A stretch of DNA of 64,000 nt from Escherichia phage UoN_LG358_1: the sequence record OK570374. One strand, written 5' to 3'. This document shows positions 1-63,049 of this stretch, one piece after another. Position numbers and translations under genes: made by a program. Each line of letters starts with the position of its first letter. The stretch's first letter is position 1. A model generated the notes under the pieces. The model was not told where the DNA came from. It ran no database searches and was given only the letters and a program-made list of their open reading frames with translations.

Positions 1-2123
1 TCTTCAAGCATATACCAAATCACTGGGTATTTTTTAGCAAATTCGTCAGAAGCTTTATTAAAATCAGACTTTGACGATAAGATGAGTTTATTATAAATCT
101 TATAACATAAAGCAATTTTTTTAGCAGCTTTTGACTGTTTCACTACTGTGTTAATAGAGCGGCAATTTAATGCTTCAGCCATCTGGTTGAGAACTAAAGA
201 CTTTTCCCAGTTATCACCGGAGATAAAATTCTTCAGCAACGGATTAAGTGCCTTTATATTAATCATAGCATTGAAGCGTCTGATATTAAACAAATGCGGA
301 TGAATTAAATCATCAAGTACGTCGTCAATCAAATCTGCATAACTATCAGCTAAAATATTAAAAACTGAAGTTAGAGAATTATTGTCTTTGACATATTTCA
401 TTGCGCTAGGACGAATAGTATAAAATTCTTTTATATCTGCCGCTTTACATGCTTGTCTAATATTTTCAATGCTGTAACTCGTAGAGCATTCTGTTCTTAA
501 TTCAACAATGTCTTCTCGATTAATTCCAACTGCTAAACCTTCCAATTCACGAACTTCATTTGCAGTTAAAAACAAATTAGTCGATTCCCAATGAAGTTCT
601 GAATCCAATTTCCATAGATGAACATTCGGAGATTTTGGACGTTTAACCGCATCTGAATTATCTGGCTTATTGATTTCAGCATCTTTGGCACGGGCTTGTT
701 CCATATCAGAAGCTTTAAAAATAACTACTTCATCGCCTTCAAACAACTTCTTGGCAAGTTCTACAACTTCTAAATGGTCTTCATTATTCGGGTCAATTAA
801 AATAACTTGACAGCCTTTATGAATATTAAGGTAACTCATCCCACGAATAGTGCTTGCTCTGCGGTTTGGCTTATCGTCAATCATAAAAACAATCTTTTTC
901 TGATTAACATGAATTAAGCCAGATGCCGAATATCGATTACGCGTGCTCCATGAATTACTAATTTTGCGGCGTTCAGCCATATCGCCGACAAAGTAAGTAT
1001 ACATATTAGATGAATACATTTTATTTTCGAGAGCACGTTGGTCGAAATAATCAAGCCATTCGCGGCAAGTTTTGCCTTGAATTTTTGATTGGCTATTACC
1101 AATAATAGCAAGAGACCTGCTGGAAAATTTCTTTAACTCACGGACCAGTTCTCGCTTATTGGTTATACTTTCAAGATGTTTGATATCGTCTCTTAGATTT
1201 GTTTCTTCGATTTTATTAATTTTATTGCGAATAGCTTCGATAGTTTCTTCATTGTAAGAAAGCTCTTCACGGCTAGGAGTAATATCAAGTTCACCTAATT
1301 CAAAATTAACATAAACTGTGTTATACTTATTATTCAACCATTCGCATTTGATACCAGGAACTTCTTGAACCTTAATCGGATAAACAATTCGTCCATAAAT
1401 CGCATATAAATTCGAATCAGTATCAAAATAAGAGCGTTGTTTATCAAACCACTGCTTTTCTGGAGTAAACTCTTCGAAATAATCAATATTGATATTAGCA
1501 CCTTGAATTTCTGGTTCAACACCAGCAAATGTGCGCAAAGTACGACGGACTTCATGATGCCACTTATCAATATCGTCAGTTTTTACCGGGACAGTAATTT
1601 CAATACCGGTGTATTCATCTTCTTCCATTGCTGTGTCAAACAGCGGAATAATTTCTGGGCCAGTATTTTTCATTATAGCGGTGTAACCGCGCTTACGGCC
1701 CTTATGACAAGAAACGACTGTAAAAGTTTTTGTATAGCTAAATGGAGATTTTGAGCCAAGACCCATTGCCCCGATGAAATCATTTGAGTCGGCTTTAGTT
1801 GAAGCAAAATAAGTATTATACAAGCCTGGAGCATCATCAGTTCCACGAATTTGTTCATCGCTCATACCTGGGCCAAAATCGCGAATTACGAAGCGCGGGT
1901 CTATACGAGTAGGAACTTTAATAGTGAACGGACGAGTTTGACCATTCAGTTTATGAGCATCGAGACAGTTAGTAGATAATTCACGAACGATAGCGTAAAT
2001 TTTATTGGTGTACAACTTGTCTGAAAGAACCATGAACGCTTTCATGTTGTTCTCAATGCCAAACTTACTTGCCTTTTGATTGGCTGAACCAAAAATCTGC
2101 TCTTCTTCTTGTTTAATAATCAT
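1..2123 (-). CDS. rIIA: rIIA protein, partial (3' end beyond window edge); GHKL ATPase-like N-terminus
   Basis: Open minus-strand frame from ATG at 2123 to the window edge; N-terminus MIIKQEEEQIFGS...YTNKIYAIVRELSTNCLDAH resembles T4 rIIA and a GyrB/GHKL ATP-binding fold; sits upstream of genes 60/39 as in T4. Confidence 0.7.
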   Translation of the reverse strand, partial: MIIKQEEEQIFGSANQKASKFGIENNMKAFMVLSDKLYTNKIYAIVRELSTNCLDAHKLNGQTRPFTIKVPTRIDPRFVIRDFGPGMSDEQIRGTDDAPGLYNTYFASTKADSNDFIGAMGLGSKSPFSYTKTFTVVSCHKGRKRGYTAIMKNTGPEIIPLFDTAMEEDEYTGIEITVPVKTDDIDKWHHEVRRTLRTFAGVEPEIQGANINIDYFEEFTPEKQWFDKQRSYFDTDSNLYAIYGRIVYPIKVQEVPGIKCEWLNNKYNTVYVNFELGELDITPSREELSYNEETIEAIRNKINKIEETNLRDDIKHLESITNKRELVRELKKFSSRSLAIIGNSQSKIQGKTCREWLDYFDQRALENKMYSSNMYTYFVGDMAERRKISNSWSTRNRYSASGLIHVNQKKIVFMIDDKPNRRASTIRGMSYLNIHKGCQVILIDPNNEDHLEVVELAKKLFEGDEVVIFKASDMEQARAKDAEINKPDNSDAVKRPKSPNVHLWKLDSELHWESTNLFLTANEVRELEGLAVGINREDIVELRTECSTSYSIENIRQACKAADIKEFYTIRPSAMKYVKDNNSLTSVFNILADSYADLIDDVLDDLIHPHLFNIRRFNAMINIKALNPLLKNFISGDNWEKSLVLNQMAEALNCRSINTVVKQSKAAKKIALCYKIYNKLILSSKSDFNKASDEFAKKYPVIWYMLE

Positions 2124-2349: not shown

Positions 2350-2635
2350 TTCCTACCTCTCTGAGGATGGCTGCAAACTGGCTCATAGTGTGTTTTTCAC
2401 GTACAGAGTAAACCAGCCTCAAAGCGGTTTGTTGTAGGTTCACCGGAATGATCTGGTTGTTTTCAACTAATACAGCAATATGTTCTATCATATTAGAGAA
2501 TTTATTTAACCAGATTTCATCTGGTGTATTCTCTGTTTTATTCAGAAACATATCTTTACTATCTCTAATTGTTGCTGCTACGTTGTATAAATTAACATAA
2601 CTTCCGTTAAGCATTTTCATAGCTGTAATCACCAT
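2336..2635 (-). CDS. hypothetical protein
   Basis: 99-aa ORF in track; overlaps upstream ORF start by a few nt. Confidence 0.4.
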   Translation of the reverse strand: MVITAMKMLNGSYVNLYNVAATIRDSKDMFLNKTENTPDEIWLNKFSNMIEHIAVLVENNQIIPVNLQQTALRLVYSVREKHTMSQFAAILREVGNEKL

Positions 2636-2640
2636 ACTAA

Positions 2641-2668
2641 AAAGGGACTCCCGAAGGAGTCCCTGTTA
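2641..2668 (-). terminator. putative intrinsic terminator (hairpin GGGACUCC-UUCG-GGAGUCCC followed by U-run on minus-strand RNA)
   Basis: Plus strand AAAAGGGACTCCCGAAGGAGTCCCTG; perfect stem with UUCG tetraloop and T-run in the minus orientation. Confidence 0.5.
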
Positions 2669-10939: not shown

Positions 10940-11572
10940 TTAGAATGAATAAAAATCCAAATGATATACAGTATATGACGGAGATAAAGGGTCATACTGT
11001 AACTCTTCAATCTCCACTATCTCAAATTGTGTTCCAATAGGGAACATCCATTCATCTTCTCCATTGACCATTTCAAGTTTATCCAGTCTTTCATCAAAAA
11101 TAAAATCTGGGTCTATGCTGTGCATAAATTCTGTGTCTGGCGCAGCCAGAAGCATATTCAGTGCGTGCTCTTGATAGTTAAAAGCAAATGGGCAATTACG
11201 TAATGACAAAATAGTATGAGTACCATACACACTCCCTCCAGCGAATTGTCTTGCTGTGGAAAAATCTGATGTAAATGACGTAACTCGGTCATCAGCAATA
11301 ATTCTTCCTACAGCCATATTTTTCAACCAAGCTTCGGTACGTTTTGACACTCCTCTGTAGAGTTCAACTGGAACGTCAGAACTAATATGCTTACGTATAA
11401 TTTTGTCCAGTTCTACATGCAAAGTTTTGTCAATTTTATCATTCATACACTGCCAAAGTATGCTCTGTTCAAAATCACTGAACATCTTAATTTTTTCTTC
11501 ATACAATCCATAGAGATTGTTATCAACTATGTTACAAACGATTTCATTAAGCTGAGAATTTGTGTATAACAT
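10940..11572 (-). CDS. ADP-ribosyltransferase, ModA/ModB-like (R-S-E class)
   Basis: 210 aa; ELYRGVS (Arg), VTSFTSDFSTA (STS) and GEDEWMF (acidic) motifs in the order typical of mono-ADP-ribosyltransferases; T4 modA/modB position. Confidence 0.6.
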   Translation of the reverse strand: MLYTNSQLNEIVCNIVDNNLYGLYEEKIKMFSDFEQSILWQCMNDKIDKTLHVELDKIIRKHISSDVPVELYRGVSKRTEAWLKNMAVGRIIADDRVTSFTSDFSTARQFAGGSVYGTHTILSLRNCPFAFNYQEHALNMLLAAPDTEFMHSIDPDFIFDERLDKLEMVNGEDEWMFPIGTQFEIVEIEELQYDPLSPSYTVYHLDFYSF

Positions 11573-11598
11573 AATAGCCTCCGTAGTTTACAGAAGCT

Positions 11599-11628
11599 AT
11601 CATAACACATTTTGACTGGGATGTAAAC
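11599..11628 (-). promoter_or_regulatory. T4-type early promoter
   Basis: GTTTAC / 18 bp / TATGAT on the minus strand, just upstream of the ADP-ribosyltransferase start. Confidence 0.4.
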
Positions 11629-12843: not shown

Positions 12844-13089
12844 TCAACCACCTGGTACTACTGGCGGTACGCCTTTAAACATATCAGCGTTTTTGGCAAT
12901 CCAAGCGTCTCTTTGAGCTTCTTCAAAAACGGTAGAATACGCCGCTTTTTCGGAAGGGAAGAGTTGATAATGAGAACCAGCAATTTGATGCACGTCGGAG
13001 TAAAGCTTAAAAGCTACAGAAACTTCCATACCTTTTACTTCACCGTCGGCATTTGTATGGTCAAACGTTTTTACGTTAACATAACTCAT
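12844..13089 (-). CDS. soc: small outer capsid protein Soc
   Basis: 81 aa; ...VSVAFKLYSDVHQIAGSHYQLFPSEKAAYSTVFEE... closely matches T4 Soc. Confidence 0.8.
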   Translation of the reverse strand: MSYVNVKTFDHTNADGEVKGMEVSVAFKLYSDVHQIAGSHYQLFPSEKAAYSTVFEEAQRDAWIAKNADMFKGVPPVVPGG

Positions 13090-13121
13090 GTAATTCTCCT
13101 TTGTTGATTACATGAGTATTT

Positions 13122-13274
13122 ATTAATAGTTATTTAAAGCCTCTACTATATCTGCTATGATATCTTCAGAATCGCCAATAAGTTCTCGAAGAGATTTGTA
13201 CTTATCTTCTGGACTTAGAGGATTTAAGCCCCAATATTTTATTAAAGCATTTTCAATATCAGAATATGAAATCA
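13122..13274 (-). CDS. small hypothetical protein (50 aa)
   Basis: Hand-translated MISYSDIENALIKYWGLNPLSPEDKYKSLRELIGDSEDIIADIVEALNNY; ATG directly follows the gene 56 stop. Confidence 0.25.
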
Positions 13275-38717: not shown

Positions 38718-40530
38718 TGTGTTTTGTCCTATGCATGATTTCTTTATTCTTACCTAGGTTAAATCCTCGATCAGAAGGATTACCGAGATATCCGCAAGTC
38801 CTTCTAATAGTATTCATCTTCTTAGGATTAGTCTCGCCACAAACAGTACATTCAAATCCGTTTTCAGTTGGTTTCATTTCATGAGTTGACCCGCAACTCA
38901 AACATTTATCAACTGGCATATTAACACCAAAATAATCCAGTTTTTCTACAGCATAATCCCAGACTGCTTCAAGAGCTTGAATATTTCTCTTCATATCAGG
39001 CAATTCAACATAAGATATGTGTCCACCCTTTGCAATGAAGTGGTATTTTGCTTCTCGGTCAATTTTTTCAAATGGAGAAATTTTTTCTTCAACTGAAACA
39101 TGGAAGCTATTAGTATACCATCCTTTGTCGGTTACGCCTTTGACTATTCCGTGTTCGGCTGCGTCAATTTTACAGAAACGATAACATAACGATTCTGCCG
39201 GGGTACTATAAAGGCTAAAAGCATATCCTGTTTCTTCGGTCCATTCGCGGAGATAATCATTCATGTGTTTAAGCACTAATTCACCGATGCCTTTGTAGGT
39301 CATTAGTTCAAGCTCGTGAATTCCGATATATCCAAGCGAAATAGAACTTCTACCATTTTTAAACAACTCAATGATTTCATCATCCGGTTTCATTCGAACG
39401 CCAAAAGCTCCTTCTTGATACAGAATCGGAGCCACAGAAGCTTTTACACCTTTTAACGATTCAATACGAAGCAGCAGCGCGTCTTTACAAATCTTCATTC
39501 GGCAGTCTAGTAGATGCATGAGCATGTTTAAATCTGTTTTGCCGTTGACCTGAGAATCCAAAGCTATACGAGGAAGATTTAATGTAACAACACCTAAATT
39601 ATTGCGTCCGTCAAGAATAAATTTACCATCGGAATTTTTCCATGCGCTCAAAAAGCTTCTGCACCCCATTGGAGATACAGGAATAGGAGAACCAGTAATC
39701 TTACGATTATTTTTGGCGCTAATAATATCGGGATACATTCGCTTAGAAGCGCATTCTAAAGCTAGTTGTTTGATATCATAATTTGGGTCTTCACTGTGGA
39801 GATTTAAACCTTCTTCAACGAACATAACCAATTTAGGAAAAATTGGAGTAATTCCATGACGACCTAATCCTCGAATACGATTTTTAAGAATAGCTTGTTG
39901 AATTAGTTTTTCTTCCCAAGATGTCCCCATACCAAATGTAATGGTAACGAAAGGCGTTTGGCCGTTAGAGCTGAAAAGTGTATTAACTTCATATTCATAT
40001 CCTTGAAAAGCATCGAATACATCTTTTTCTGTTTTCTCTTGAGCATATAATTCAGCGTCCGTAATATGATATCGGCGAGCGTCTTCGATATGTTTGTTGA
40101 AAGTTGCTTCTACATAAGGAGCTAGTACTTGGTCAACATTAGCAAATGTAGTTCCACCATATTGATGAGAAGCTACTTGAGCTGTAATTTGAGCCATTAC
40201 GGCAGTTGCTACACCGATTGAATTTGATGTTTCAATTTCAGCATTACCGAGTTTAAACCCATTTTGAAGCATTCCGGCTAAATCTACTAAGCAACAGTTA
40301 GTAAACGGAAGCGATGGTGAATAATCCATGTCATGAAAATGGATAATTCCTTTATCATGAGCATCTAGTATAGAGACTGGAATGACCTTACGGGCGACAT
40401 GTTTAGAAACAATGCCGGCCATAAGGTCACGTTGGGTGGGAAATACCCGCGAATCTTTATTCGCGTTTTCATTTAAAAGGTCTGTATTAGTTCTGTCAAA
40501 CAGACCTTTGATTTCGGTTTCAATTGTCAT
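38707..40530 (-). CDS. nrdD: anaerobic ribonucleoside-triphosphate reductase NrdD
   Basis: 607 aa continuous ORF (no intron); C-terminal glycyl-radical motif RRTCGYLG and CxxC zinc site. Confidence 0.9.
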   Translation of the reverse strand: MTIETEIKGLFDRTNTDLLNENANKDSRVFPTQRDLMAGIVSKHVARKVIPVSILDAHDKGIIHFHDMDYSPSLPFTNCCLVDLAGMLQNGFKLGNAEIETSNSIGVATAVMAQITAQVASHQYGGTTFANVDQVLAPYVEATFNKHIEDARRYHITDAELYAQEKTEKDVFDAFQGYEYEVNTLFSSNGQTPFVTITFGMGTSWEEKLIQQAILKNRIRGLGRHGITPIFPKLVMFVEEGLNLHSEDPNYDIKQLALECASKRMYPDIISAKNNRKITGSPIPVSPMGCRSFLSAWKNSDGKFILDGRNNLGVVTLNLPRIALDSQVNGKTDLNMLMHLLDCRMKICKDALLLRIESLKGVKASVAPILYQEGAFGVRMKPDDEIIELFKNGRSSISLGYIGIHELELMTYKGIGELVLKHMNDYLREWTEETGYAFSLYSTPAESLCYRFCKIDAAEHGIVKGVTDKGWYTNSFHVSVEEKISPFEKIDREAKYHFIAKGGHISYVELPDMKRNIQALEAVWDYAVEKLDYFGVNMPVDKCLSCGSTHEMKPTENGFECTVCGETNPKKMNTIRRTCGYLGNPSDRGFNLGKNKEIMHRTKHIEI

Positions 40531-41612
40531 TTTAAGCCTTTCTTTAAATAATAGACATAATCTTCAAGCCATTCTATTGTCAATAGAATTTCTTCGGGGC
40601 TTTTTAAATTAGCCTTTATTTCTTTAAAAGAATTTGTCATTATTTTAGAAGTATGTTCAATTTTAATAGTTTCTACTAAATTTAAAGTCGAAAGTCTCTC
40701 AATGTAAGACTTTTTATCTTCAATTTGTAATTTAATAATCTCGCCAGATTTAACAAATTTAGAACAGCTTCCACGATTAGAACCAAAGAATTCTTCGACT
40801 TCGGAATTTGACGCAAACTTTTTACCAGTTTCCACATGTTGAAACTTCCATCGCTGACGTCGAATTGAAGGATGTAGTGTCCATCGATCTTTTATAATAT
40901 CAAGTTTTCCATTTAATAAATTTGTAATATGAGACGATGAAATATCATTTTTTCTTGCAAATTCAGCTTGATTTATTACTTCGATTTCGCACGAATTTAG
41001 TTCATCCCAAATTTTAAATTTAGAAACAGAATGATACACTGATAATTTTTCTTCCTTTGAGCGACCAAATTGCCAGCCAGAATCTAAATACTTTTGAACA
41101 TCATCGGGTTTAACATATTTGGTTTTTTGACCAATTTTATACATCATCGGCCATGAAACATGCTCATTTCCTTTGTCAAAATTCATCCATCGAGCAATAT
41201 CTTCTTCTGTTAAATCATCGAAGCAGTTAGGGTTAAAATGCCCGCCAATTTGTTTGTTTAACCACATAGGGTCTCGTAATACGTCATTAGCAAGTTGCAT
41301 TTCCATTTCAGCCATTAAAGTTTTACCCCAAGTTGGATACCATCCAACAATTAGATATTCTTTAGGCTTTATACCATTTTCCAACATCGAATTCAATTCA
41401 TTTGATGAAGATGTATAAGTCTTCCAATCTGATTCTTCAAATCCTTTTTTAGGACCGCGTTTAAACGTTGAAGGGGCAGCTTTAATTCTTTTCCAAATCT
41501 TTTTAGCGCCTACATACTTTTTACCGTCTTCAAACGTGATTACATAAACAAATCCAATATTATTTTTAATATCTGTTTCTTCAAAAACAGACCAATGACC
41601 ATAATCTGACAT
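40527..41612 (-). CDS. GIY-YIG homing endonuclease (Seg-like), free-standing next to nrdD
   Basis: 361 aa; N-terminal GFVYVITFEDGKKYVGAKK matches the GIY-(10-11)-YIG motif; long C-terminal putative DNA-binding region. Confidence 0.6.
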   Translation of the reverse strand: MSDYGHWSVFEETDIKNNIGFVYVITFEDGKKYVGAKKIWKRIKAAPSTFKRGPKKGFEESDWKTYTSSSNELNSMLENGIKPKEYLIVGWYPTWGKTLMAEMEMQLANDVLRDPMWLNKQIGGHFNPNCFDDLTEEDIARWMNFDKGNEHVSWPMMYKIGQKTKYVKPDDVQKYLDSGWQFGRSKEEKLSVYHSVSKFKIWDELNSCEIEVINQAEFARKNDISSSHITNLLNGKLDIIKDRWTLHPSIRRQRWKFQHVETGKKFASNSEVEEFFGSNRGSCSKFVKSGEIIKLQIEDKKSYIERLSTLNLVETIKIEHTSKIMTNSFKEIKANLKSPEEILLTIEWLEDYVYYLKKGLK

Positions 41613-41677
41613 TATAAATACATCCTTTTTACTAATATTATGATGTATTTATACAATAAGCTAAACCATTAATTTAT

Positions 41678-48698: not shown

Positions 48699-49676
48699 TT
48701 ATTTCAGCATTGTTACTTCTGAGATTTCACGCCAATTTTTCTCGTCTGTTGCTACGAAATCCGCCAAATACAAGGCAGTACGTAATGATACATTACGAAG
48801 ACGGTTTACGTTGTTTTTCATAAATTCGAGAACATCAACAACCTGTGAATTACGTAATCCGCGATTTTGTAACATCCGGGTATTCATAATAACTTCTTCA
48901 ACGCGGACCATTATTTCTTCATTTGAATGAACACCTAAATCTAAATAAACTGAACGTGATACCAAAGCAGCAAGATGCGGTGCTAATTTGCTTCCACGTT
49001 CTAATTCTTTATCAATATCAACGTTTGTGATAAAAACTACTGTTCCCTCATATTCAAATTCATTTGGGATGTTTTTTTCTTCCAAGTAAGAAGAAGCAGT
49101 ACTCCAACATACCTTACGTTTATCACCCGAATCCAAAGCAGCTTTAAGAAGATTTAGAATATCCATATCAGAAAATACGTCCACATCATCAATAAGCAGA
49201 ACTGAATTAGCTTCACGAGATTCCCAAAGACGGCAGTAAAGACCAATCCCGGAAATTTTACCATTGACTGATTTATATTCAATTCTACCATCATTGTGAG
49301 CATTTTCCAATGCTTTATCTAAGGTGTAAGTTTTACCAATACCCGCAGCGCCCGAGATGATAAGTGAACGAATGTTACCATTTATAATACCATTCGTCAT
49401 AAATCCCATAACGTTAAAGCGCTTATTAATGCGAGCTTTCATATCATCTACGCTTTCGATAAGTTCAATCTTTTTAGTAGTTCCGCTGTAGCTGATATCT
49501 GATTTGTAAACCCAAACACCTTTTTTCTTACCATTAATCATTACGAATACTTTACCATCACCTTGGGCAGCATCTTCGGGTTTCAAAGTTTCCGGGAACC
49601 ATTCCCCTACTAATTCGAACGTCCCGGAAATTTCTTTTCCGAAGTTAATACCTTTATTGATAGTGATGGTTGTCAT
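48699..49676 (-). CDS. P-loop NTPase (AAA-like ATPase) of unknown function
   Basis: Walker A GAAGIGKT, Walker B VLLIDDVD, sensor-like FITN; start at ATG 49676 downstream of an early promoter. Confidence 0.5.
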   Translation of the reverse strand: MTTITINKGINFGKEISGTFELVGEWFPETLKPEDAAQGDGKVFVMINGKKKGVWVYKSDISYSGTTKKIELIESVDDMKARINKRFNVMGFMTNGIINGNIRSLIISGAAGIGKTYTLDKALENAHNDGRIEYKSVNGKISGIGLYCRLWESREANSVLLIDDVDVFSDMDILNLLKAALDSGDKRKVCWSTASSYLEEKNIPNEFEYEGTVVFITNVDIDKELERGSKLAPHLAALVSRSVYLDLGVHSNEEIMVRVEEVIMNTRMLQNRGLRNSQVVDVLEFMKNNVNRLRNVSLRTALYLADFVATDEKNWREISEVTMLK

Positions 49677-49725
49677 TTTATTCTCCAAGTTAGTTTTTGT
49701 TTTACCATTTATTTGGTATGAAGTA

Positions 49726-49755
49726 ATAGTATCATCATTTCATACCGTTGTAAAC
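49726..49755 (-). promoter_or_regulatory. T4-type early promoter with -10 inside hairpin loop
   Basis: GTTTAC-18-TACTAT on the minus strand; inverted repeat GGTATGAA/TTCATACC (49715..49746) brackets the -10. Confidence 0.4.
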
Positions 49756-49982: not shown

Positions 49983-50010
49983 TTTATTCTCCTTTGGTTT
50001 TGATAGTGCT

Positions 50011-50040
50011 ATAATACCATATGTCATAGCACTTGTAAAC
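50011..50040 (-). promoter_or_regulatory. T4-type early promoter with -10 inside hairpin loop
   Basis: GTTTAC-18-TATTAT; inverted repeat AGTGCTAT/ATAGCACT (50005..50033). Confidence 0.4.
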
Positions 50041-53305: not shown

Positions 53306-53687
53306 CTTACACTCCCCAGATATTAAAGTTCATTGTAAACTTACTTTAGCAAATTCAGCGATATTATTCGTTGTCCACTGTTTCCCAAGCAAGAGTTACT
53401 ACAATGTTTTCAATAGATTGCACTAAGTGTTGTTTTGCACCAGTTGATAAATCATACTGACATAACGAATTAGCTAATTCAATTAACTTTCTTTTAGTCT
53501 CTTCATGAGCTGTTTCGTCATATTTCATTGTAAACTTCCCTTAACTAATTCAACGATACCATTCACAAGATTGTAAGTAAACAATGGATGATTGTATTGA
53601 ACGAACAGATAAACAGCAATAATAACGTTTTTCATATATCCTCCATATGATGAGATAATTATACCATATCTCATCATGAATGTACAA

Positions 53688-58002: not shown

Positions 58003-58020
58003 GTTTACCTCATTTAAAAC

Positions 58021-58488
58021 TTAAAGATAAATTACGTGTTTGCTAGTTTTTCCTTCGTATCTATTTGTATTAACAAAAGCCATCCGACACTGCATAGAAT
58101 AAGGAGTAGAGAAAGTTTTACCAGGAGTAGGTTTTGAAACAGTGAAACCAAGCCAAAGAGTTTTGTCAGTGATTTCAAGGCGAAGAGGTCGATACTCAAT
58201 ATTTGGGTCTAAATTTTCTTCTGCATCTGGTCGTTCCGGGAGCTCAAGAAATTCATTAACTTCGACAACATGATTTGAAAGCTTGTGAAAAAGTTCAAAA
58301 ACATAGTTCTCGTCAATTTCTCGTTGAATGGCGCGGTCCAATAAATGCTGAGAATATTTTACATGAAAACCTGGAACTCCAGCGGATTCGCATGCTGCTT
58401 TTATTTCGGAATTAATTTTAGCAAATTCCGTTTCAAAAAGACGACGAAGTTTGTTGCGGCGGATGAATACTTCTGCGTTAGTTGACAT
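58021..58488 (-). CDS. regB: endoribonuclease RegB
   Basis: 155 aa; EVFIRRNKLRRLFETEF...FHVKYSQHLLDRAIQREIDENYVFELFHK... near-identical to T4 RegB. Confidence 0.85.
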   Translation of the reverse strand: MSTNAEVFIRRNKLRRLFETEFAKINSEIKAACESAGVPGFHVKYSQHLLDRAIQREIDENYVFELFHKLSNHVVEVNEFLELPERPDAEENLDPNIEYRPLRLEITDKTLWLGFTVSKPTPGKTFSTPYSMQCRMAFVNTNRYEGKTSKHVIYL

Positions 58489-58516
58489 TTATTTCTCCTC
58501 TTTATGATATAAGATT

Positions 58517-58546
58517 ATAATAACACATCCAGAGGAGAAAGTAAAC
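58517..58546 (-). promoter_or_regulatory. T4-type early promoter upstream of regB
   Basis: GTTTAC-18-TATTAT on the minus strand. Confidence 0.4.
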
Positions 58547-58565
58547 GGTTTGTAGGCTTAATGTC

Positions 58566-58796: not shown

Positions 58797-58823
58797 GATG
58801 CTTACACCTTATAATGATAAATC

Positions 58824-59366
58824 TTATTGCATTCCTATCACAAAAAATTGCGGTCGCGCAGTTTGATTGTTTTTATAACAATCAACTCGACAACAATACT
58901 GCATGGTTTCCATATGAACATCGTAAAGCTTATCCATATCAGGAGCTTTTACAGGTTCATCAATTATATACAAGATTCTTGAAAGCGATAGACCTCGGAA
59001 TTTGTATCCTTTATTGCCTATAAAACTACGCACAGAATCAGTGAACAAGCGAAATCGGATATCATCATTAGAATAACGCGAAAATTCCTTTTTAATGTGA
59101 TTTGCGGAAAGTTCAGCGTATGCTGATTTATTGGATAAAACAATAACCGTTCCACCATCATACAGCCAATTGGCGGCGAAGTTAGTTACAGCGATTGATT
59201 TACCAGATTGGCGCCCACCGTCTAGTCGAAGAGTGCAATATTCTTTAAGCAGGGTTTCTAATGGCGGAACCCAGCCATTTTTGCAAATTTCATCTACTCT
59301 AGCATCAGAATGATGTGTAAAAGCATTCATCAGGGATAGATATGGTGCAGTTAAAAATGTTCTCAT
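58824..59366 (-). CDS. hypothetical P-loop protein
   Basis: 180 aa; DGGRQSGKS Walker-A-like and LYIIDEP Walker-B-like. Confidence 0.4.
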   Translation of the reverse strand: MRTFLTAPYLSLMNAFTHHSDARVDEICKNGWVPPLETLLKEYCTLRLDGGRQSGKSIAVTNFAANWLYDGGTVIVLSNKSAYAELSANHIKKEFSRYSNDDIRFRLFTDSVRSFIGNKGYKFRGLSLSRILYIIDEPVKAPDMDKLYDVHMETMQYCCRVDCYKNNQTARPQFFVIGMQ

Positions 59367-59542
59367 TTGTTTCTCTTAAGTTTGTGGGCCGTTCCGTGGC
59401 ACATGATTGGTCCTTCTACCGCTATGTAAACCCATTACCGCACTTGGGCTCGACCTTATTACAGGTTGGAAAAGGTTCATCACTCAGAGGACACGACGTT
59501 CATGAGGAGAGGCTGCGTTACCCTTTATTAGGCAGGAAATGT

Positions 59543-59806
59543 TTAAGCTTTACCGCCTGAAACAATTCCAAAATTATCAAAATCGTCTTCAATGTCAGAA
59601 GGGTCTACTTTTTTACCAGGTACAACATAAGCAATTTCGCGGCGTTTAGCATGAGTAACAATTTCTTTGCCTAAACCATTAAAGAAAGAATAGCCATTTC
59701 GTTTTAGAGACCCAAAGTCTTCTGCGTCACCAGTAAATGCACGCACTTTAAATGCGCCTTTTGGAGCTTTTACTGACTCATTAATAAATTCTTCGTAAGT
59801 TTTCAT
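59543..59806 (-). CDS. internal (capsid-injected) protein with capsid-targeting sequence
   Basis: 87 aa; N-terminal MKTYEEFINES matches the T4 IP capsid-targeting consensus. Confidence 0.55.
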   Translation of the reverse strand: MKTYEEFINESVKAPKGAFKVRAFTGDAEDFGSLKRNGYSFFNGLGKEIVTHAKRREIAYVVPGKKVDPSDIEDDFDNFGIVSGGKA

Positions 59807-59837
59807 TTAATTTCCTTTATGAACCAAATATTAGTAA

Positions 59838-59881
59838 TGTTCTGTAGAATAATTATAACATCATCTACAGAACATGTAAAC
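59838..59881 (-). promoter_or_regulatory. early promoter with -10 (TATAAT) in the loop of an 11-bp perfect hairpin
   Basis: Inverted repeat TGTTCTGTAGA/TCTACAGAACA with 15-nt loop; GTAAAC immediately adjacent. Confidence 0.4.
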
Positions 59882-59883
59882 AT

Positions 59884-60360
59884 TTATTTGATTGATTTAA
59901 CGTATCGAGTAACACCTTTGTCGTTAACAAACGCAATCTTACCGCGGCTGTTATACATCGTTACAGTACGCTGATAGCCATAAGTCTGTTTACCTGCCTG
60001 ATAACCAATCAAAGCGAAGTTATCTTCACCAGGCTTGTTCAGTTTAGCTTTGATACGTTCATGACCATAAGCCATTAAACTTCTCTGGTCGCCTGTGTTC
60101 AATGCTTTACGAACACTTTCATCGTCGACGGATGAAACAAAATCCTCAAATGAGCTGAACTTGGCGTGGCTCTTGTTGTAAAGTTTGCCTTCGACTACAT
60201 AGTTATAGCCCATAACATCCATATCAACTTCAGTACCATCTTCAAGTACTACAGTGATTTTCTGACCTTTCTTGTATTTCAGCAGACCATCAGTAGATTC
60301 GTTGATGATAATCTGAGAAATGACGCGGGCTTCATTGATAAAATCTTCATAAGTTTTCAT
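59884..60360 (-). CDS. internal protein with capsid-targeting sequence
   Basis: Start at ATG 60360: MKTYEDFINEA... Confidence 0.55.
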   Translation of the reverse strand: MKTYEDFINEARVISQIIINESTDGLLKYKKGQKITVVLEDGTEVDMDVMGYNYVVEGKLYNKSHAKFSSFEDFVSSVDDESVRKALNTGDQRSLMAYGHERIKAKLNKPGEDNFALIGYQAGKQTYGYQRTVTMYNSRGKIAFVNDKGVTRYVKSIK

Positions 60361-60404
60361 GTATAATTCCATTGCTGATTGACGTTAATTATTATAACTA
60401 ATTT

Positions 60405-60824
60405 TTAATTAGCATAAACGGCTTTACCGTAATATTTGTACCAGCCTAGTTTTTGAGAAATTTTCTCATCCAGACGTTGTTGACTAATTTGAATAGACCA
60501 AATAGATGGATGGTAATCATTTTTCCATTCGTTTGGAATATCATTTAAATCTTGAATTGACGTATCTTTTATATTAAATCCTCGTTTTAAACATTCGGCA
60601 ATAATTTCTTTATGTCGGTTTTTGAGAAATAAAAGTTTATCATAAAAGAACGTGACATGGCCCGACCCAAGAACAAAAGTAGAACTGATTTTAAAATCCG
60701 AAGGACGTTTGCCGGCCTTAACGTGCTTACGTACTGCTCCAAAAACACGAGGAAGTTCGCGGTACTCGGCAATTAAATGCTGATCAGCAAGTTCAGATAC
60801 TAAAGTCAAATTTATACGAGTCAT
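60405..60824 (-). CDS. denV: endonuclease V (pyrimidine-dimer DNA glycosylase)
   Basis: [35 protein letters not shown]... near-identical to T4 DenV; start at ATG 60824. Confidence 0.85.
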
Positions 60825-60830
60825 ACGTTT

Positions 60831-60869
60831 CTCCTGTAGATGTTGAATATTATAAATCATCTACAGGAG
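60831..60869 (-). promoter_or_regulatory. 12-bp perfect hairpin sequestering the denV Shine-Dalgarno, with -10-like TATAAT in the loop
   Basis: CTCCTGTAGATG / CATCTACAGGAG inverted repeat; AGGAG of the 3' arm lies 6 nt upstream of the denV ATG. Confidence 0.5.
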
Positions 60870-60878
60870 AAGTAAATT

Positions 60879-61211
60879 TTATTTAAAAGCAGCTTTCAAT
60901 TCTTTGAATGCTTTAGAACTCAAAGTAAAAGATTCAGCGCCGATGCGAAAGAATGCGCTGTCATTATCTACAGCTACACCAATTTGTGTAGAACCCTCAG
61001 AGCCCTTCCACTTACCACCGTCGCGAAGGACTTTGACAATAGCTGTGGTTTGTAGTTTAGATGTCTGAAAACGTTCATTTCCAATTTGGAAGTAAACCCC
61101 ATCTTTATCAGTTACTAAAGCGAATTTAGTCGACCCTTCTGTGTCTTTAATAGTAGCTTCAGCGATCTGAGACAATAATGCCTCAGTAATAAATTCATCA
61201 TATGTTTTCAT
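60879..61211 (-). CDS. internal protein with capsid-targeting sequence
   Basis: Start at ATG 61211: [15 protein letters not shown]...; two internally similar halves. Confidence 0.55.
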
Positions 61212-61698
61212 ATGCTTTCCAAGTTCCTGTTTCAAAAGTTTTAATAACGCGGCGTGCGCGATTAGTTGTTTGTCTGTACCATTTAGATTGAGCTAAATTT
61301 ACAGCAGCTCTATCCCAATCTTTAGCTTTTAATAAAGCCATAGAATTTTTAAAACCCGCTACACCAGCTACACCCATTTGAAAAACCATGTTAATCAGAG
61401 CAGCCAGACGAGGTTCATCACCAATAAAAGAATTATATACAGGTTTTAATGTAGCATTTTTAAGAATTCCAGAAACTGCAGTTTCAACATCATTCTTGAA
61501 AATAAGTTCAGCTTCTGATTGAGTAATTTTGCCAGACGTATTACGGCCAACAAGACGGTCCAACTCACTGATAGCTACGGATTTATTAGGGTTTTTAGTC
61601 AAAAGATGACCTATACCGACGGTCCAAAAACCTTCGGTATCTTTATAAATTTCAAGTTTTAAACCTTCGTCGATGCGAAGCATGTCAAAAATGTTCAT
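61198..61698 (-). CDS. e: endolysin (T4 lysozyme)
   Basis: 166 aa; [35 protein letters not shown]... near-identical to T4 lysozyme. Confidence 0.9.
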
Positions 61699-61725
61699 AA
61701 TACCTCCCCTTTAATAGAGGTATTT
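61699..61725 (-). promoter_or_regulatory. hairpin sequestering the lysozyme SD, with late-promoter-like TAATAAATA just upstream
   Basis: AUACCUC...GAGGUAU stem places GGAGGU in the 3' arm immediately before the e ATG, as described for T4 gene e. Confidence 0.5.
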
Positions 61726-61726
61726 A

Positions 61727-62023
61727 TTAATCCCAACTTTTGACAAAAAGGTCTGTCATGAATTCTTCTAGTCGGGTTTCTACAGACGAGGAAACGTCAG
61801 ATGATGTAGAAACTAGATAACCACAGATAGGCTTAAAACTTTCTAAATTACTTTCCATTTCATATTTAATTTGCTCTTCGGACTCATTATCACCAAATGA
61901 ATAGAGATAATTATATCCATTTTTTGAATTTACATAAATTGCTACACTCATTATACCGTCCAAATTATATAGTACGTCCTTCGACGATTTTAGCGAAAGA
62001 CCAATTTTTAGTAATAAACTCAA
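61727..62023 (-). CDS. hypothetical protein
   Basis: 98-aa ORF in track (start may be internal). Confidence 0.35.
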   Translation of the reverse strand: MSLLLKIGLSLKSSKDVLYNLDGIMSVAIYVNSKNGYNYLYSFGDNESEEQIKYEMESNLESFKPICGYLVSTSSDVSSSVETRLEEFMTDLFVKSWD

Positions 62024-62165
62024 TGATTAAATTCAATTCTTTAGCTTCGACAATATCAGTTACGTGGTTTTCGTGATTTCCAGTATTCAGAACAGCACGG
62101 AAACGATCGAATTTACCAAAATCGTTAGTTACTTTATCGATAGTTACAGTGTTAAATTTAGCCAT
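61965..62165 (-). CDS. hypothetical small protein
   Basis: Start at ATG 62165; MAKFNTVTIDKV...; leader and promoter near-identical to those of the gene starting at 49676. Confidence 0.4.
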   Translation of the reverse strand: MAKFNTVTIDKVTNDFGKFDRFRAVLNTGNHENHVTDIVEAKELNLIIEFITKNWSFAKIVEGRTI

Positions 62166-62219
62166 GATTTTATTCTCCAAGTTAGTTTTTGTTTTACCAT
62201 TTATTTGGTATGAAGTAAT

Positions 62220-62341
62220 AATAACACATCCGTCCATGGATGTAAACGGTTGAAGTAAAAATTTTTGAATTCACCAGAACGGTTGAGAGATTGGATACAG
62301 AAAGGATAATAGATTATAAATCTATACAAATAAAAATGCCC
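62220..62341 (-). repeat. 122-bp tandem direct repeat, copy 1 (contains an early promoter)
   Basis: Identical to 62342..62463 by direct comparison. Confidence 0.85.
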
Positions 62342-62463
62342 AATAACACATCCGTCCATGGATGTAAACGGTTGAAGTAAAAATTTTTGAATTCACCAGA
62401 ACGGTTGAGAGATTGGATACAGAAAGGATAATAGATTATAAATCTATACAAATAAAAATGCCC
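62342..62463 (-). repeat. 122-bp tandem direct repeat, copy 2 (contains an early promoter)
   Basis: Identical to 62220..62341. Confidence 0.85.
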
Positions 62464-62480
62464 TAGAGTTAAACTAGGGC
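62452..62480 (-). terminator. putative intrinsic terminator
   Basis: GCCCTAG-AGTTAAA-CTAGGGC hairpin followed by AUUUUUAUUU in the minus orientation. Confidence 0.5.
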
Positions 62481-62488
62481 GTGAGAGA

Positions 62489-63049
62489 TTAAATCTTATA
62501 GAACCTGAACGGATTTATATGGAAAGCAAGCATTGCTCTGGGTATCGGACGGGATAATAAGCTTTTAAGTTTCCACCCACAATAAACTCGTAGGTAAAAT
62601 TGAATTTTTCCAATTCTTAGATAAGGAACAGCAGCAAAAACTCCCCAAGCGTCATCGTTCCACATAAACAGCCATCCATGATGAGCTTTATCTGGAGAAC
62701 CCGATTCTACATTAGGGTTTCCACGATAATGAAACTCAGATGTAGCGGGGCGGCCAAGGACATAATATGCAAAGTTATAAGCTTTATTTCGCCACAGCCA
62801 TGCTACGCGTTGAAAGTATTTACCTAAAACTGGAATTTTACGAATTTTCGACCAGCGTTCAATATGTCCACGGTCTCCATCAATAGGATTGTCGTATGTT
62901 TCCATCCAACGGAATCCTTTAGGTAAGTGACCAGTCTTTTCAGAATAGAATGGAACAATAAATGGAGTCAATACAACAGCTAAAACCATAGAAATGAAAT
63001 CTAGTGGAACAAGAAAAATCCATGAAGCGTATTTTAGAAATTTAGTCAT
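62489..63049 (-). CDS. hypothetical membrane protein
   Basis: 186 aa; N-terminal hydrophobic segment IFLVPLDFISMVLAVVLTPFIV. Confidence 0.45.
   Translation of the reverse strand: MTKFLKYASWIFLVPLDFISMVLAVVLTPFIVPFYSEKTGHLPKGFRWMETYDNPIDGDRGHIERWSKIRKIPVLGKYFQRVAWLWRNKAYNFAYYVLGRPATSEFHYRGNPNVESGSPDKAHHGWLFMWNDDAWGVFAAVPYLRIGKIQFYLRVYCGWKLKSLLSRPIPRAMLAFHINPFRFYKI

What the first reader, a model, noticed from the sequence alone, without database searches (positions are those of the whole stretch)
59838..61725. Hairpins that place the -10 box in the loop and, at denV and e, the Shine-Dalgarno in the stem
At denV a 12-bp perfect inverted repeat pairs the SD AGGAG while the loop holds a TATAAT-like box. 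At e, a 7-bp stem pairs GGAGGU next to a late-promoter-like TAATAAATA. Similar -10-in-loop hairpins occur at 59838..59874, 49715..49746, 50005..50033 and 53647..53677. Readthrough transcripts would be translationally silent while transcripts starting inside the hairpin are active, as is known for T4 gene e and here apparently extended to denV.
Basis: partly seen in the sequence, partly recalled or inferred. Interest (0 to 1): 0.5.

Follow-up and report, generated by a model that had tools for sequence, protein, structure and literature searches.

The report
Promoter-embedded hairpins masking ribosome sites
In this T4-like Salmonella phage, the lysozyme and UV-repair genes each sit behind a hairpin that hides the ribosome-binding site in long read-through RNAs, while a promoter inside the hairpin makes short RNAs that can be translated. 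This is a known T4 trick, seen here at further genes, and is not a new kind of system.

Summary
The window is about 99.7-100% identical to Salmonella phage STP4-a, a T4-like Gelderlandvirus.

- **denV:** a 14-bp perfect inverted repeat (60871..60829, minus strand) puts an exact TATAAT in its 15-nt loop and GGAG in its 3' arm. A TTTACT -35 lies 16 bp upstream.
- **e:** an 8-bp stem (61724..61699) pairs GGAGGT directly after AATAAATA.
- **Other sites:** all four are real perfect repeats bracketing the -10 of T4-type early promoters. This holds for 6 of 17 promoters against 0.95% of random positions.

The e hairpin is the conserved T4 lysozyme switch, which allows translation only from late transcripts. 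The -10-in-loop hairpins belong to the published PeSL class (promoter-early stem-loops).

T4 itself has the denV design, as do 24 distinct T4-like denV leaders. Their stems covary and occupy two different positions, but the anti-SD segment always lies upstream of the predicted start. Predicted cost of opening the ribosome site:

| Gene | Read-through RNA | Own transcript |
|---|---|---|
| denV | 19.9 kcal/mol (rank 2 of 109 genes) | 4.0 kcal/mol |

regB and a mod-like gene share the design.

No transcript or translation data exist, so function is inferred. Verdict: a new member of a known kind, of modest interest.

The parts
61721..61728 (-). Late-promoter-like AATAAATA (T4 late consensus TATAAATA) directly upstream of e. 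Its last four bases are the start of the 5' arm.
   Evidence: ATAAATAC is invariant in 17 aligned e leaders. ATAAATA occurs only 9 times in the window against 33 +/- 6 in shuffles, 8 of them on the coding strand.
61699..61724 (-). The e leader hairpin: 5' arm AATACCTC (61724..61717), 10-nt loop, 3' arm GAGGTATT (61706..61699). It pairs the SD GGAGG (61707..61703) and ends at the ATG (61698).
   Evidence: read-through -12.6 kcal/mol (z -2.4), late-type transcript 0 kcal/mol; opening cost 11.0 (rank 8 of 109) against 5.7.
61198..61698 (-). e, a T4-type lysozyme (166 aa).
   Evidence: Pfam Phage_lysozyme. Annotated as endolysin in STP4-a.
60879..61211 (-). Internal-protein-like gene IPa (110 aa, begins MKTYDEFI). 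It overlaps the end of e by 14 nt and has no promoter of its own.
   Evidence: CGG4-1 carries a different IP gene here, and S16 and Melville have none.
60849..60876 (-). Predicted T4-type early (sigma-70) promoter of denV: TTTACT (60876..60871), 16-bp spacer, TATAAT (60854..60849). Predicted +1 is near 60842.
   Evidence: 10 of 12 consensus matches. CGG4-1 has GTTTAC here.
60829..60871 (-). The denV hairpin: 5' arm TTCTCCTGTAGATG (60871..60858, inside the promoter spacer), 15-nt loop containing the -10, 3' arm CATCTACAGGAGAA (60842..60829) containing the SD GGAG (60834..60831).
   Evidence: -22.1 kcal/mol, z -4.65, opening cost 19.9 (rank 2 of 109) against 4.0 in the own transcript.
60405..60824 (-). 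denV, pyrimidine-dimer glycosylase (139 aa, begins MTRINL).
   Evidence: Pfam Pyr_excise. The start is homologous to T4. RefSeq begins the gene at the ATG at 60860, inside the 5' arm.
59884..60360 (-). Internal-protein gene IPb (158 aa).
   Evidence: DUF7412.
59837..59881 (-). PeSL-type cassette upstream of IPc: GTTTACA (-35), 12-bp arms ATGTTCTGTAGA and TCTACAGAACAT, TGtTATAAT in the loop. The SD lies about 30 nt downstream and is not paired.
   Evidence: S16 and Melville carry a compensatory T-A to C-G change. CGG4-1 has lost the -10 but kept the stem.
59543..59806 (-). Internal head protein gene IPc (87 aa).
53647..53687 (-). PeSL-type cassette: TTGTAC (-35), 11-bp arms ATGATGAGATA and TATCTCATCAT, TGgTATAAT as the loop. 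GGAGG starts 2 nt after the 3' arm.
   Evidence: Opening cost 11.2, rank 3 of 17 in the promoter swap.
50005..50040 (-). PeSL-type cassette: GTTTACA, 8-bp arms AGTGCTAT and ATAGCACT, TGgTATTAT overlapping the loop and 3' arm. The SD is free.
49715..49755 (-). PeSL-type cassette: GTTTACA, 8-bp arms GGTATGAA and TTCATACC, TACTAT in the loop. The SD is free.
   Evidence: Its leader half recurs at 97% identity at 62167-62226.
58492..58546 (-). Second early-promoter SD mask, upstream of regB (58021..58488): GTTTACT, 5' arm TTTCTCCTCT in the spacer, TGtTATTAT in the loop, 3' arm AGAGGAGAAA, which contains the SD.
   Evidence: -20.2 kcal/mol, z -4.4, opening cost 15.2 (rank 4 of 109) against 4.9. The same design occurs in T4 and in 19 relatives.
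11574..11628 (-). Third SD mask, with the other geometry, upstream of a gene annotated as RNA polymerase ADP-ribosylase (10940..11572): GTTTACA, TATGAT, 5' arm ATAGCTTCTGTA running from the -10 to about +1, 3' arm TACGGAGGCTAT.
   Evidence: -23.3 kcal/mol, z -4.3, opening cost 16.4 (rank 3 of 109) against 2.9. Annotation.

Best explanation
These are promoter-embedded hairpins that mask the translation-initiation region, of the kind established for T4 gene e. In each case the SD lies in the 3' arm. The complementary anti-SD segment lies just upstream of the start point of the gene's own promoter.

RNA that reads through from upstream contains both arms. It folds as soon as the 3' arm emerges and hides the SD from the 30S subunit. 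RNA started at the embedded promoter lacks the 5' arm and can be translated.

**e.** The embedded promoter is a late one (AATAAATA), so lysozyme is made only late. This follows from homology to T4 plus prediction.

**denV, and also regB and a mod-like gene.** The embedded promoter is a T4-type early sigma-70 promoter. The 5' arm occupies the -35/-10 spacer, which is why the -10 ends up in the loop. The protein would then be made only from the short burst of transcripts from its own early promoter. It would not be made from middle or late RNA coming down from the e late promoter through the internal-protein genes. This temporal logic is inferred.

**The cassettes as mobile units.** Each cassette (-35, stem, -10, leader, SD) is also a PeSL-type unit that travels with its gene. 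The hairpins at 59838, 50005 and 49715 are PeSLs that leave the SD free, so the genes they precede, such as head protein IPc, remain translatable from read-through RNA.
For: **Shown from the sequence**
- Exact positions of the arms, SD, -35 and -10.

**Shown by computation**
- Fold energies and z-scores.
- Cost of opening the ribosome site in read-through RNA, compared over 109 annotated genes (median 5.9 kcal/mol, 90th percentile 10.6):

| Gene | Read-through | Rank of 109 | Own transcript |
|---|---|---|---|
| denV | 19.9 | 2 | 4.0 |
| mod-like | 16.4 | 3 | 2.9 |
| regB | 15.2 | 4 | 4.9 |
| e | 11.0 | 8 | 5.7 |

- T4 has the same design at denV and at regB.
- In 24 distinct T4-like denV leaders, the native promoter and leader give 15.0 kcal/mol, promoter-swapped chimeras give 8.9, and own transcripts give 2.6.
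- Across 48 denV and regB leaders (33 distinct arm pairs) the SD is always paired in the minimum-energy fold. Inner stem sequences differ between lineages (TGTAG/CTACA, CCAAG/CTTGG, GTTTG/CAAAC and others). There are two geometries: anti-SD in the spacer, or between the -10 and +1. In both, the anti-SD lies upstream of the predicted +1.
- Swapping promoters among the 17 early promoters of this window gives native 7.87 against permuted 5.88 +/- 0.52 kcal/mol (p = 0.0002).
- e leaders conserve nATAAATA followed by the anti-SD, with covarying stems.
- soc and a SegE-like endonuclease gene in the same window show the e-type arrangement, as soc and I-TevI do in T4.

**From the literature**
- T4 e, soc, 49 and I-TevI are established cases. 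The e structure lowers lysozyme synthesis about 100-fold (PMC3014915).
- T4 regB is transcribed from an early promoter that is shut off at 2-3 min.
- T4 workers treated the denV mRNA as unstructured around GGAG, which fits a proximal start (PMC1702504).
Against: - There are no transcript 5' ends, termination data or translation data for this phage. All +1 positions are predicted as 7 nt after the -10.
- The stems are almost entirely Watson-Crick. Sense and antisense strands fold equally well in 39 distinct leaders (-18.1 against -18.0 kcal/mol, p = 0.45). The comparison therefore cannot separate selection on RNA from selection on a DNA palindrome.
- A first, cruder test of whether all early promoters mask their SD was not significant: mean pairing probability 0.55 against 0.47 +/- 0.06 in shuffles. 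Only denV and regB stood out individually.
- With short leaders (18-24 nt), a stem placed at a fixed position relative to the promoter would overlap the SD anyway. Masking could therefore be a side effect of a stem kept for another reason.
- The upstream stop codon lies only 7 nt before the denV 5' arm, so a terminating ribosome might loosen the stem base.
- The window's e hairpin is the weakest of 21 relatives (11.0 kcal/mol).
Confidence: 0.65

Rival explanations
1. PeSL reading only. The stem-loops are transcription terminators or attenuators for the upstream gene, fused to an early promoter. Their main evolutionary role is as conserved sites for recombination that shuffles gene cassettes. 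On this view SD pairing at denV is incidental.
For: - PeSL papers PMC2839356 and PMC4122927 report stems between or overlapping the -35 and -10. An RB49 stem reduced lacZ expression like a strong terminator. They also note similar elements at T-even IP loci.
- Homology between STP4-a and CGG4-1 starts exactly at the -35 of the denV cassette, while the upstream IP gene differs.
- Near-identical cassettes precede denV and regB in RB-type phages.
- Cassette halves are repeated within the window, and there is a 122-bp tandem duplication.
- CGG4-1 keeps the 59838 stem although its -10 is deleted.
Against: - No T/U run follows any of these stems, and their loops are 9-16 nt. The terminator scan flags none of them.
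- Downstream tails are A-rich in all lineages.
- This reading does not explain why lineages that move the 5' arm to the -10/+1 interval still pair the SD.
- It does not explain why native promoter and leader pairs mask better than swapped ones.
- It is compatible with the best explanation. The recombination role is probably also true.
Confidence: 0.2
2. Translational coupling device. The hairpin keeps denV silent unless a ribosome translating the upstream internal-protein gene reaches its stop codon and melts the stem base. Read-through RNA would then be translated in proportion to upstream translation.
For: The IPa stop codon (60881..60879) lies 7 nt before the 5' arm, and the first arm bases are those that pair with GGAGAA. 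In the spacer-geometry lineages the upstream stop codon abuts the -35, so the anti-SD is 6-12 nt away.
Against: From general knowledge of ribosome footprints, a terminating ribosome unwinds only about 7 nt beyond the stop codon, which barely reaches the stem. In T4 the gap is 10 nt. In the second geometry the 5' arm is about 30 nt from the stop codon.
Confidence: 0.08
3. DNA-level element. The palindromes act in duplex DNA, either as cruciforms or as operators for a dimeric protein that modulates or shuts off early promoters.
For: The repeats are perfect and centred on the -10. Both strands fold equally well. The mechanism of early-promoter shut-off in T4 is described as incompletely understood (PMC3014915).
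Against: - Arm sequences differ at every promoter, so there is no common operator.
- Only 6 of 17 early promoters have such a repeat.
- Some stems contain G.U pairs that would be A.C on the other strand. T4 regB folds at -22.4 kcal/mol in sense against -12.5 in antisense, and L018 and L022 behave similarly.
- 14-bp arms with a 15-nt spacer are poor cruciform formers (general knowledge).
- The consistent inclusion of the SD is left unexplained.
Confidence: 0.05
4. Chance inverted repeats in AT-rich intergenic DNA, with no function.
For: The two 8-bp repeats (50005 and 49715) have modest z-scores of about -2.1. About 25 such repeats are expected per shuffled window.
Against: Enrichment at promoters has p = 8e-9. 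The 11-14-bp stems are matched by at most 2 of 200 shuffles (none for the denV and 59838 stems). The design is conserved with compensatory changes across genera.
Confidence: 0.02

Closest known systems
T4 gene e (lysozyme) translational control by leader hairpin with embedded late promoters (McPheeters et al. 1986, as reviewed in PMC3014915)
   Same: The gene is orthologous. (A/T)ATAAATA is followed at once by an anti-SD that pairs GGAGGTATT up to the ATG, and late transcripts would lack the 5' arm. Fold energies computed the same way are comparable: -11.0 kcal/mol here and -13.3 in T4.
   Different: There is one promoter motif rather than T4's two, and it reads AATAAATA. The stem is the weakest among 21 relatives. 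It has not been tested experimentally here.
PeSL, promoter-early stem-loop cassettes of T4-type phages (Arbiol et al. 2010, PMC2839356; Comeau et al. 2014, PMC4122927), and the IP-locus elements of Repoila et al. 1994
   Same: - The layout matches: AT-rich region and upstream stop codon, then -35, 17 bp, -10, with a stem-loop between or overlapping the boxes, then SD and ATG.
- Copies are repeated in the early, plastic region and at the internal-protein locus.
- A gene-replacement breakpoint falls at the cassette.
- The published T-even stem consensus, AGNA-loop-TCNT, fits CTGTAGA...TCTACAG.
   Different: The PeSL papers interpret the stems as terminators and recombination sites and never mention translation (no occurrence of the word). 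Here the stems lack terminator tails, and at denV, regB and the mod-like gene the 3' arm is the SD itself.
Other T4-family RBS-sequestering hairpins with internal promoters: soc, 49, I-TevI, Aeh1 mobE, segB (PMC3014915)
   Same: The principle is identical: a promoter sits inside or next to the 5' arm, so only its own transcripts are translatable. The window contains its own soc and SegE-like examples.
   Different: The published cases named in the review use late (or middle and late) promoters and give late-only translation. denV, regB and the mod-like gene use early sigma-70-type promoters, which would give early-only translation.
Translational coupling hairpins (general knowledge: RNA phage MS2 and several E. 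coli operons)
   Same: The SD of a downstream cistron is masked by pairing with upstream RNA.
   Different: In those systems unmasking depends on upstream translation. Here an internal promoter removes the inhibitory arm.

Membership tests
T4 e-type control (TIR-masking hairpin relieved by an internal promoter) | The SD and/or AUG is paired in a stable helix in transcripts that start upstream. | tested here: met
   Prediction only. Fold energies: denV -22.1 kcal/mol (z -4.65), e -12.6 (z -2.4), regB -20.2, mod-like -23.3. Opening costs rank 2, 8, 4 and 3 of 109 genes.
T4 e-type control (TIR-masking hairpin relieved by an internal promoter) | A promoter is positioned so that its transcripts begin downstream of the 5' arm. 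| tested here: met
   By motif position only. For e, AATAAATA ends at 61721, giving a predicted +1 near 61715, while the 5' arm is 61724..61717. For denV, TATAAT ends at 60849, giving +1 near 60842, while the 5' arm is 60871..60858.
T4 e-type control (TIR-masking hairpin relieved by an internal promoter) | The pairing is conserved in relatives through compensatory change. | tested here: met
   21 e leaders. 24 denV and 19 regB leaders have different stems with the SD always paired. RNAalifold on a MAFFT alignment of e leaders found no compensatory pairs because of register shifts, so the evidence comes from per-sequence folds and promoter-swap controls.
T4 e-type control (TIR-masking hairpin relieved by an internal promoter) | Long transcripts are shown to be poorly translated and short ones well translated. 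| not testable with these tools
   This needs 5' mapping, toeprinting or reporter fusions. It has been done for T4 e only (PMC3014915).
PeSL (promoter-early stem-loop cassette) | An intergenic composite: AT-rich region or upstream stop codon, sigma-70-like -35 and -10 about 17 bp apart, then SD and ATG of the next gene. | tested here: met
   17 such promoters lie on the coding strand. All the listed hairpin sites have this layout.
PeSL (promoter-early stem-loop cassette) | A stable stem-loop lies between the -35 and -10 or overlaps either box. | tested here: met
   6 of 17 promoters have perfect repeats of at least 8 bp bracketing the -10. Others have spacer hairpins of the form CATCCatggaaGGATG.
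PeSL (promoter-early stem-loop cassette) | Copies are repeated within the genome and associated with indels or replacements between close relatives. | tested here: met
   - A 60-nt repeat at 97% identity and a 122-bp tandem duplication.
- The denV and 59838 cassettes share CTGTAGATGATnTTATAAT.
- The IP-gene replacement between STP4-a and CGG4-1 ends at the -35.
- The denV-containing indel relative to S16 and Melville is bounded instead by the repeated MKTY..FI coding sequence.
PeSL (promoter-early stem-loop cassette) | The stem-loop acts as a transcription terminator or attenuator. | tested here: inconclusive
   No U-tract follows the stems and the loops are large, so none is flagged by the terminator scan. 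Activity itself cannot be tested with these tools.

The most novel reading that the evidence does not exclude
The stems of T-even-type early-promoter cassettes (PeSLs) may be translational insulators and not terminators. An anti-SD is built into the non-transcribed part of an early promoter, either the -35/-10 spacer or the -10/+1 interval. The gene is then translated only from its own promoter's RNA, giving an early-only pulse for denV, regB and a mod-like ADP-ribosylase even though they lie inside units transcribed late. Neighbouring cassettes before head-protein genes leave the SD open on purpose. This would be the mirror image of the late-only e, soc and I-TevI switch. It is conserved across Tevenvirinae, including T4, and is absent from the reviews and PeSL papers I could read.
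Probability: 0.4. Interest if true: 0.5.

Novelty: new member of a known kind. Interest (0 to 1): 0.35.

Why it matters
If the denV, regB and mod-like hairpins work as predicted, T4-type phages use one simple device in two mirror-image forms: early-only and late-only translation. It uncouples translation from read-through transcription in a genome with few terminators.

This would explain how an early gene such as denV can sit inside a cluster of lysozyme and head-protein genes that must be transcribed late. It would also give the widespread PeSL stems a regulatory role beyond recombination.

There is a practical point for annotation. RefSeq starts denV, and several other genes, at ATGs that lie inside promoter hairpins. 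Beyond that the finding is an orthologous instance of textbook T4 biology.

Tried and rejected
- **Pairing-probability test.** I asked whether every early promoter masks its SD, comparing with shuffled upstream regions. The result was not significant (0.55 against 0.47 +/- 0.06). SD purines pair with almost any U/C-rich stretch, so I dropped this metric for opening energies and promoter-swap controls.
- **Sense against antisense folding.** Meant to separate RNA-level from DNA-level selection, it showed no asymmetry and is inconclusive.
- **RNAalifold on MAFFT alignments.** For e leaders it found only 5 pairs and no compensatory change, because stems sit in different registers. The MAFFT alignment of denV leaders had the same register problem. 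I used per-sequence folds instead.
- **Terminator reading.** The scan found no terminator-like tail at any listed hairpin.
- **Rfam.** No family matched 57500-62600, even at E = 1.
- **Literature.** Searches for a described denV SD-masking hairpin, or for T4 genome-wide start-site data, found nothing usable. The primary papers (McPheeters 1986, Valerie 1986, Miller 2003) are not held. From memory only, Valerie et al. 1986 (NAR 14:8637) noted possible stem-loops before ipIII, ipII and denV.
- **Coordinate transfer.** A fixed offset from NC_026607.2 failed because the window is not collinear with that record everywhere. I mapped genes by sequence context instead.
- **More relatives of the 59838 cassette.** Only two further Gelderlandvirus copies turned up.
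Full report
**Identity and context**

Window 59500-62100 is 100% identical to Salmonella phage STP4-a (Gelderlandvirus, Tevenvirinae). Window 39000-63900 matches it at 99.7% over 92% of its length, but the window is not collinear with the RefSeq record everywhere.

All genes near the finding lie on the minus strand. Reading in the direction of transcription, the order is:

| Gene | Coordinates | Note |
|---|---|---|
| e, lysozyme | 61198..61698 | |
| IPa, internal-protein-like | 60879..61211 | overlaps the end of e |
| denV | 60405..60824 | |
| IPb | 59884..60360 | |
| IPc | 59543..59806 | |
| regB | 58021..58488 | further downstream |

**Check of the observation**

- **denV.** The repeat is 14 bp, TTCTCCTGTAGATG and CATCTACAGGAGAA (60871..60829). 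Its 15-nt loop contains an exact TATAAT, and GGAG lies in the 3' arm 6 nt before the ATG.
- **e.** The stem is 8 bp plus one G.U, AATACCTC and GAGGTATT (61724..61699), directly after AATAAATA.
- **Other sites.** 59837..59875 (12 bp), 53647..53677 (11 bp), 50005..50033 and 49715..49746 (8 bp each) are perfect repeats.

These are complete T4-type early promoters whose spacer is the 5' arm.

The pattern is far beyond chance.

- 6 of 17 such promoters have a perfect repeat of at least 8 bp around the -10, against 0.95% of random positions (p = 8e-9).
- Repeats of at least 10 bp number 8 in the window against 2.15 in shuffles.
- Fold z-scores are -4.65 (denV), -3.9 (59838), -3.0 (53647), -2.4 (e) and about -2.1 for the two 8-bp stems.

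**What the elements are**

Two published descriptions cover them.

First, the e leader is the ortholog of the T4 e leader. In T4, early read-through RNA folds so that the SD and AUG are sequestered, while transcripts from late promoters inside the structure are translated. The review lists e, soc, 49 and I-TevI as the known cases and shows conserved e leaders in relatives (PMC3014915).

In 21 distinct e leaders that I folded, nATAAATA is followed at once by the anti-SD. Stems differ between lineages: ACCTC/GAGGT, ACCCC/GGGGT and ACTCCTATA/TATAGGAGT. The predicted cost of opening positions -15 to +4 averages 15.9 kcal/mol in read-through RNA against 6.9 in late transcripts. ATAAATAC is invariant in the alignment.

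ATAAATA is also strongly avoided in the window: 9 copies against 33 +/- 6 expected, 8 of them on the coding strand. That fits a functional late-promoter signal. Three of those copies sit next to hairpins that mask a ribosome site, at e, soc and a SegE-like homing endonuclease gene.

Second, hairpins that bracket or sit inside an early promoter are the PeSLs of Arbiol et al. 2010 and Comeau et al. 2014. [quoted passage not shown] They are repeated in plastic regions, act as recombination sites and are interpreted as terminators. The authors note analogous AT-rich elements at the T-even internal-protein loci, citing Repoila 1994.

The window fits this description.

- Cassette halves recur: a 60-nt repeat at 97% identity, and a 122-bp perfect tandem duplication.
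- Homology between STP4-a and CGG4-1 begins exactly at the -35 of the denV cassette, while the upstream IP gene is replaced.
- The larger indel relative to S16 and Melville, which lack IPa and denV, is bounded instead by the repeated sequence encoding MKTY..FI.

**The denV claim**

T4 has the same design: GTTTACAtCTCCTGTAGgtatgatactatagacctatcaaCTACAGGAGaacactaaaATG. The arrangement is therefore ancestral and not an extension peculiar to this phage.

I examined 24 distinct denV leaders from T4-like genomes.

- The SD is always paired in the minimum-energy fold, usually at -15 to -21 kcal/mol.
- The stems differ: CTCCTGTAG, TTCCTCCAAG, TCTCCGTTTG, and CCTCC combined with an inner helix.
- There are two geometries. 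Either the anti-SD lies in the -35/-10 spacer with the -10 in the loop, or it lies between the -10 and +1, as in TATGAT-GTCCTCC...GGAGGAC.
- In both geometries the anti-SD is upstream of the predicted start.

This convergence is the main argument that SD pairing is the selected feature, with the -10-in-loop geometry a by-product.

Quantitatively, native promoter and leader pairs give an opening cost of 15.0 kcal/mol. Chimeras with promoters swapped between lineages give 8.9, and own transcripts give 2.6.

In the window itself, the opening cost was compared over 109 genes (median 5.9 kcal/mol):

| Gene | Read-through | Rank of 109 | Own transcript |
|---|---|---|---|
| denV | 19.9 | 2 | 4.0 |
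| mod-like ADP-ribosylase | 16.4 | 3 | 2.9 |
| regB | 15.2 | 4 | 4.9 |
| e | 11.0 | 8 | 5.7 |

The regB design is again present in T4 and in 19 relatives, some of which use almost the same cassette as denV.

Swapping promoters among the window's 17 early promoters gives native 7.87 against permuted 5.88 +/- 0.52 kcal/mol (p = 0.0002). The distribution has two groups. denV, mod-like, regB and 53686 mask strongly. 59880 (IPc), 50039 and 49754 rank 14-17 of 17, meaning their hairpins leave the SD open.

**Likely mechanism**

*Shown:* the positions of the arms, SD and promoter boxes; fold stabilities; and conservation with covariation.

*Inferred:* the start points (7 nt after the -10, 6 nt after TATAAATA), and hence that own transcripts lack the 5' arm. 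Also inferred is that read-through RNA exists, which is plausible because no terminator-like site lies between e and denV.

*Inferred logic:* a late transcript from the e promoter would carry e, IPa, the masked denV, IPb and IPc. The head proteins and lysozyme would be made late, while denV stays silent and is made only from its own early promoter. T4-type early promoters are shut off within minutes, which is stated for regB in PMC3014915.

T4 workers classed denV mRNA among RNAs whose GGAG is not in stable structure, and found that GGAG resistant to RegB in vivo (PMC1702504). That fits a transcript starting at the proximal promoter.

**Rivals**

- **Terminator and recombination (PeSL) reading.** The recombination part is supported and can hold alongside the main explanation. 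The terminator part has no sequence support for these AT-rich, large-loop stems without U tails. The CGG4-1 59838 stem survives loss of its -10, which shows that at least this stem has a role independent of the promoter.
- **Translational coupling.** It is conceivable because the upstream stop codon lies 7 nt before the arm, but it does not fit T4 or the second geometry.
- **DNA-level operator or cruciform.** It is not excluded by strand asymmetry, but it lacks a common sequence and does not explain why the SD is always included.
- **Chance.** It is excluded for all but possibly the two 8-bp stems.

**Novelty and verdict**

The e hairpin is already known as a kind and is orthologous to T4's. 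The -10-in-loop hairpins are PeSL-type elements.

The reviews and PeSL papers available to me do not describe SD masking by an anti-SD built into an early promoter at denV, regB or the mod-like gene. The primary literature from the 1980s could not be read. It uses the same mechanism as e, soc and I-TevI with a different promoter class.

I rate the finding a new member of a known kind. It is of modest interest, and the early-only reading can be tested cleanly by experiment.

Noticed in passing
window 58492..58546 (hairpin and promoter) and 58021..58488 (regB): regB (Pfam REGB_T4, E = 3e-68) has the same early-promoter SD mask as denV. TTTCTCCTCT in the spacer pairs with AGAGGAGAAA (-20.2 kcal/mol, z -4.4). 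The design is conserved in T4 and 19 relatives, with different stems.
   Followed up: yes
window 11574..11628 and 10940..11572: A gene annotated as RNA polymerase ADP-ribosylase has its SD and AUG paired with a 5' arm that runs from the -10 to about +1 of its own early promoter (-23.3 kcal/mol, z -4.3). This is the second geometry of the same device.
   Followed up: partly
window 13084..13124 (soc, 12844..13089): The soc ortholog (Pfam Soc) has AATAAATA followed by an 11-bp stem, with the SD in the loop and the AUG in the 3' arm (-13.1 kcal/mol, z -3.4). This is the classical T4 soc arrangement.
   Followed up: partly
window 41613..41653 (gene 40527..41612): A SegE-like GIY-YIG homing endonuclease gene has a 12-bp repeat, TATAAATACATC and GATGTATTTATA. 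The 5' arm is itself a consensus late promoter, and the 3' arm ends at the ATG. This is an I-TevI or mobE-type mask on the ribosome site.
   Followed up: partly
window 60860 (also 62237, 23658, 16771): RefSeq starts denV at the ATG inside the hairpin's 5' arm, giving 151 aa with no SD. The start homologous to T4 is the ATG at 60824. Several other annotated starts are the ATG of 'tccATGGA' inside promoter spacer hairpins, and are probably annotation errors.
   Followed up: partly
window 62220..62463: A perfect 122-bp tandem duplication carries an early promoter with a spacer hairpin (CCGTTTACATCCATGGACGG). The megablast match to STP4-a ends exactly at the repeat boundary (62341).
   Followed up: no
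window 49675..49734 and 62167..62226: A 60-nt direct repeat at 97% identity forms the 3'-arm, leader and SD half of two promoter cassettes 12.5 kb apart. The 5' halves differ, one being a -10-bracketing stem and the other a spacer hairpin.
   Followed up: partly
whole window: The late-promoter core ATAAATA is strongly depleted: 9 copies against 33 +/- 6 in shuffles. 8 of the 9 lie on the coding strand, mostly 25-40 nt before a gene start.
   Followed up: partly
L003 (CGG4-1) about 604..680, homologous to window 59837..59881: In CGG4-1 a 6-nt deletion in the loop removes the -10 of the IPc cassette, but the 12-bp stem is intact. S16 and Melville carry a compensatory T-A to C-G change at the second pair from the base of the stem. 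The stem is maintained independently of the promoter.
   Followed up: partly
window 2635..2664: A true terminator-like hairpin, AGGGACTCC-cgaa-GGAGTCCCT followed by a T run, contains in its 3' arm the only SD-like sequence of the gene starting at 2635. This gene has the highest opening cost in the window (20.1 kcal/mol).
   Followed up: no
window 59543..61211: Three internal-protein-like genes begin with MKTY(E/D)(E/D)FI. From general knowledge of T4 this is the capsid-targeting leader. The segment holding IPa and denV, absent from S16 and Melville, is bounded by two copies of the sequence encoding this leader, which suggests recombination within it.
   Followed up: partly
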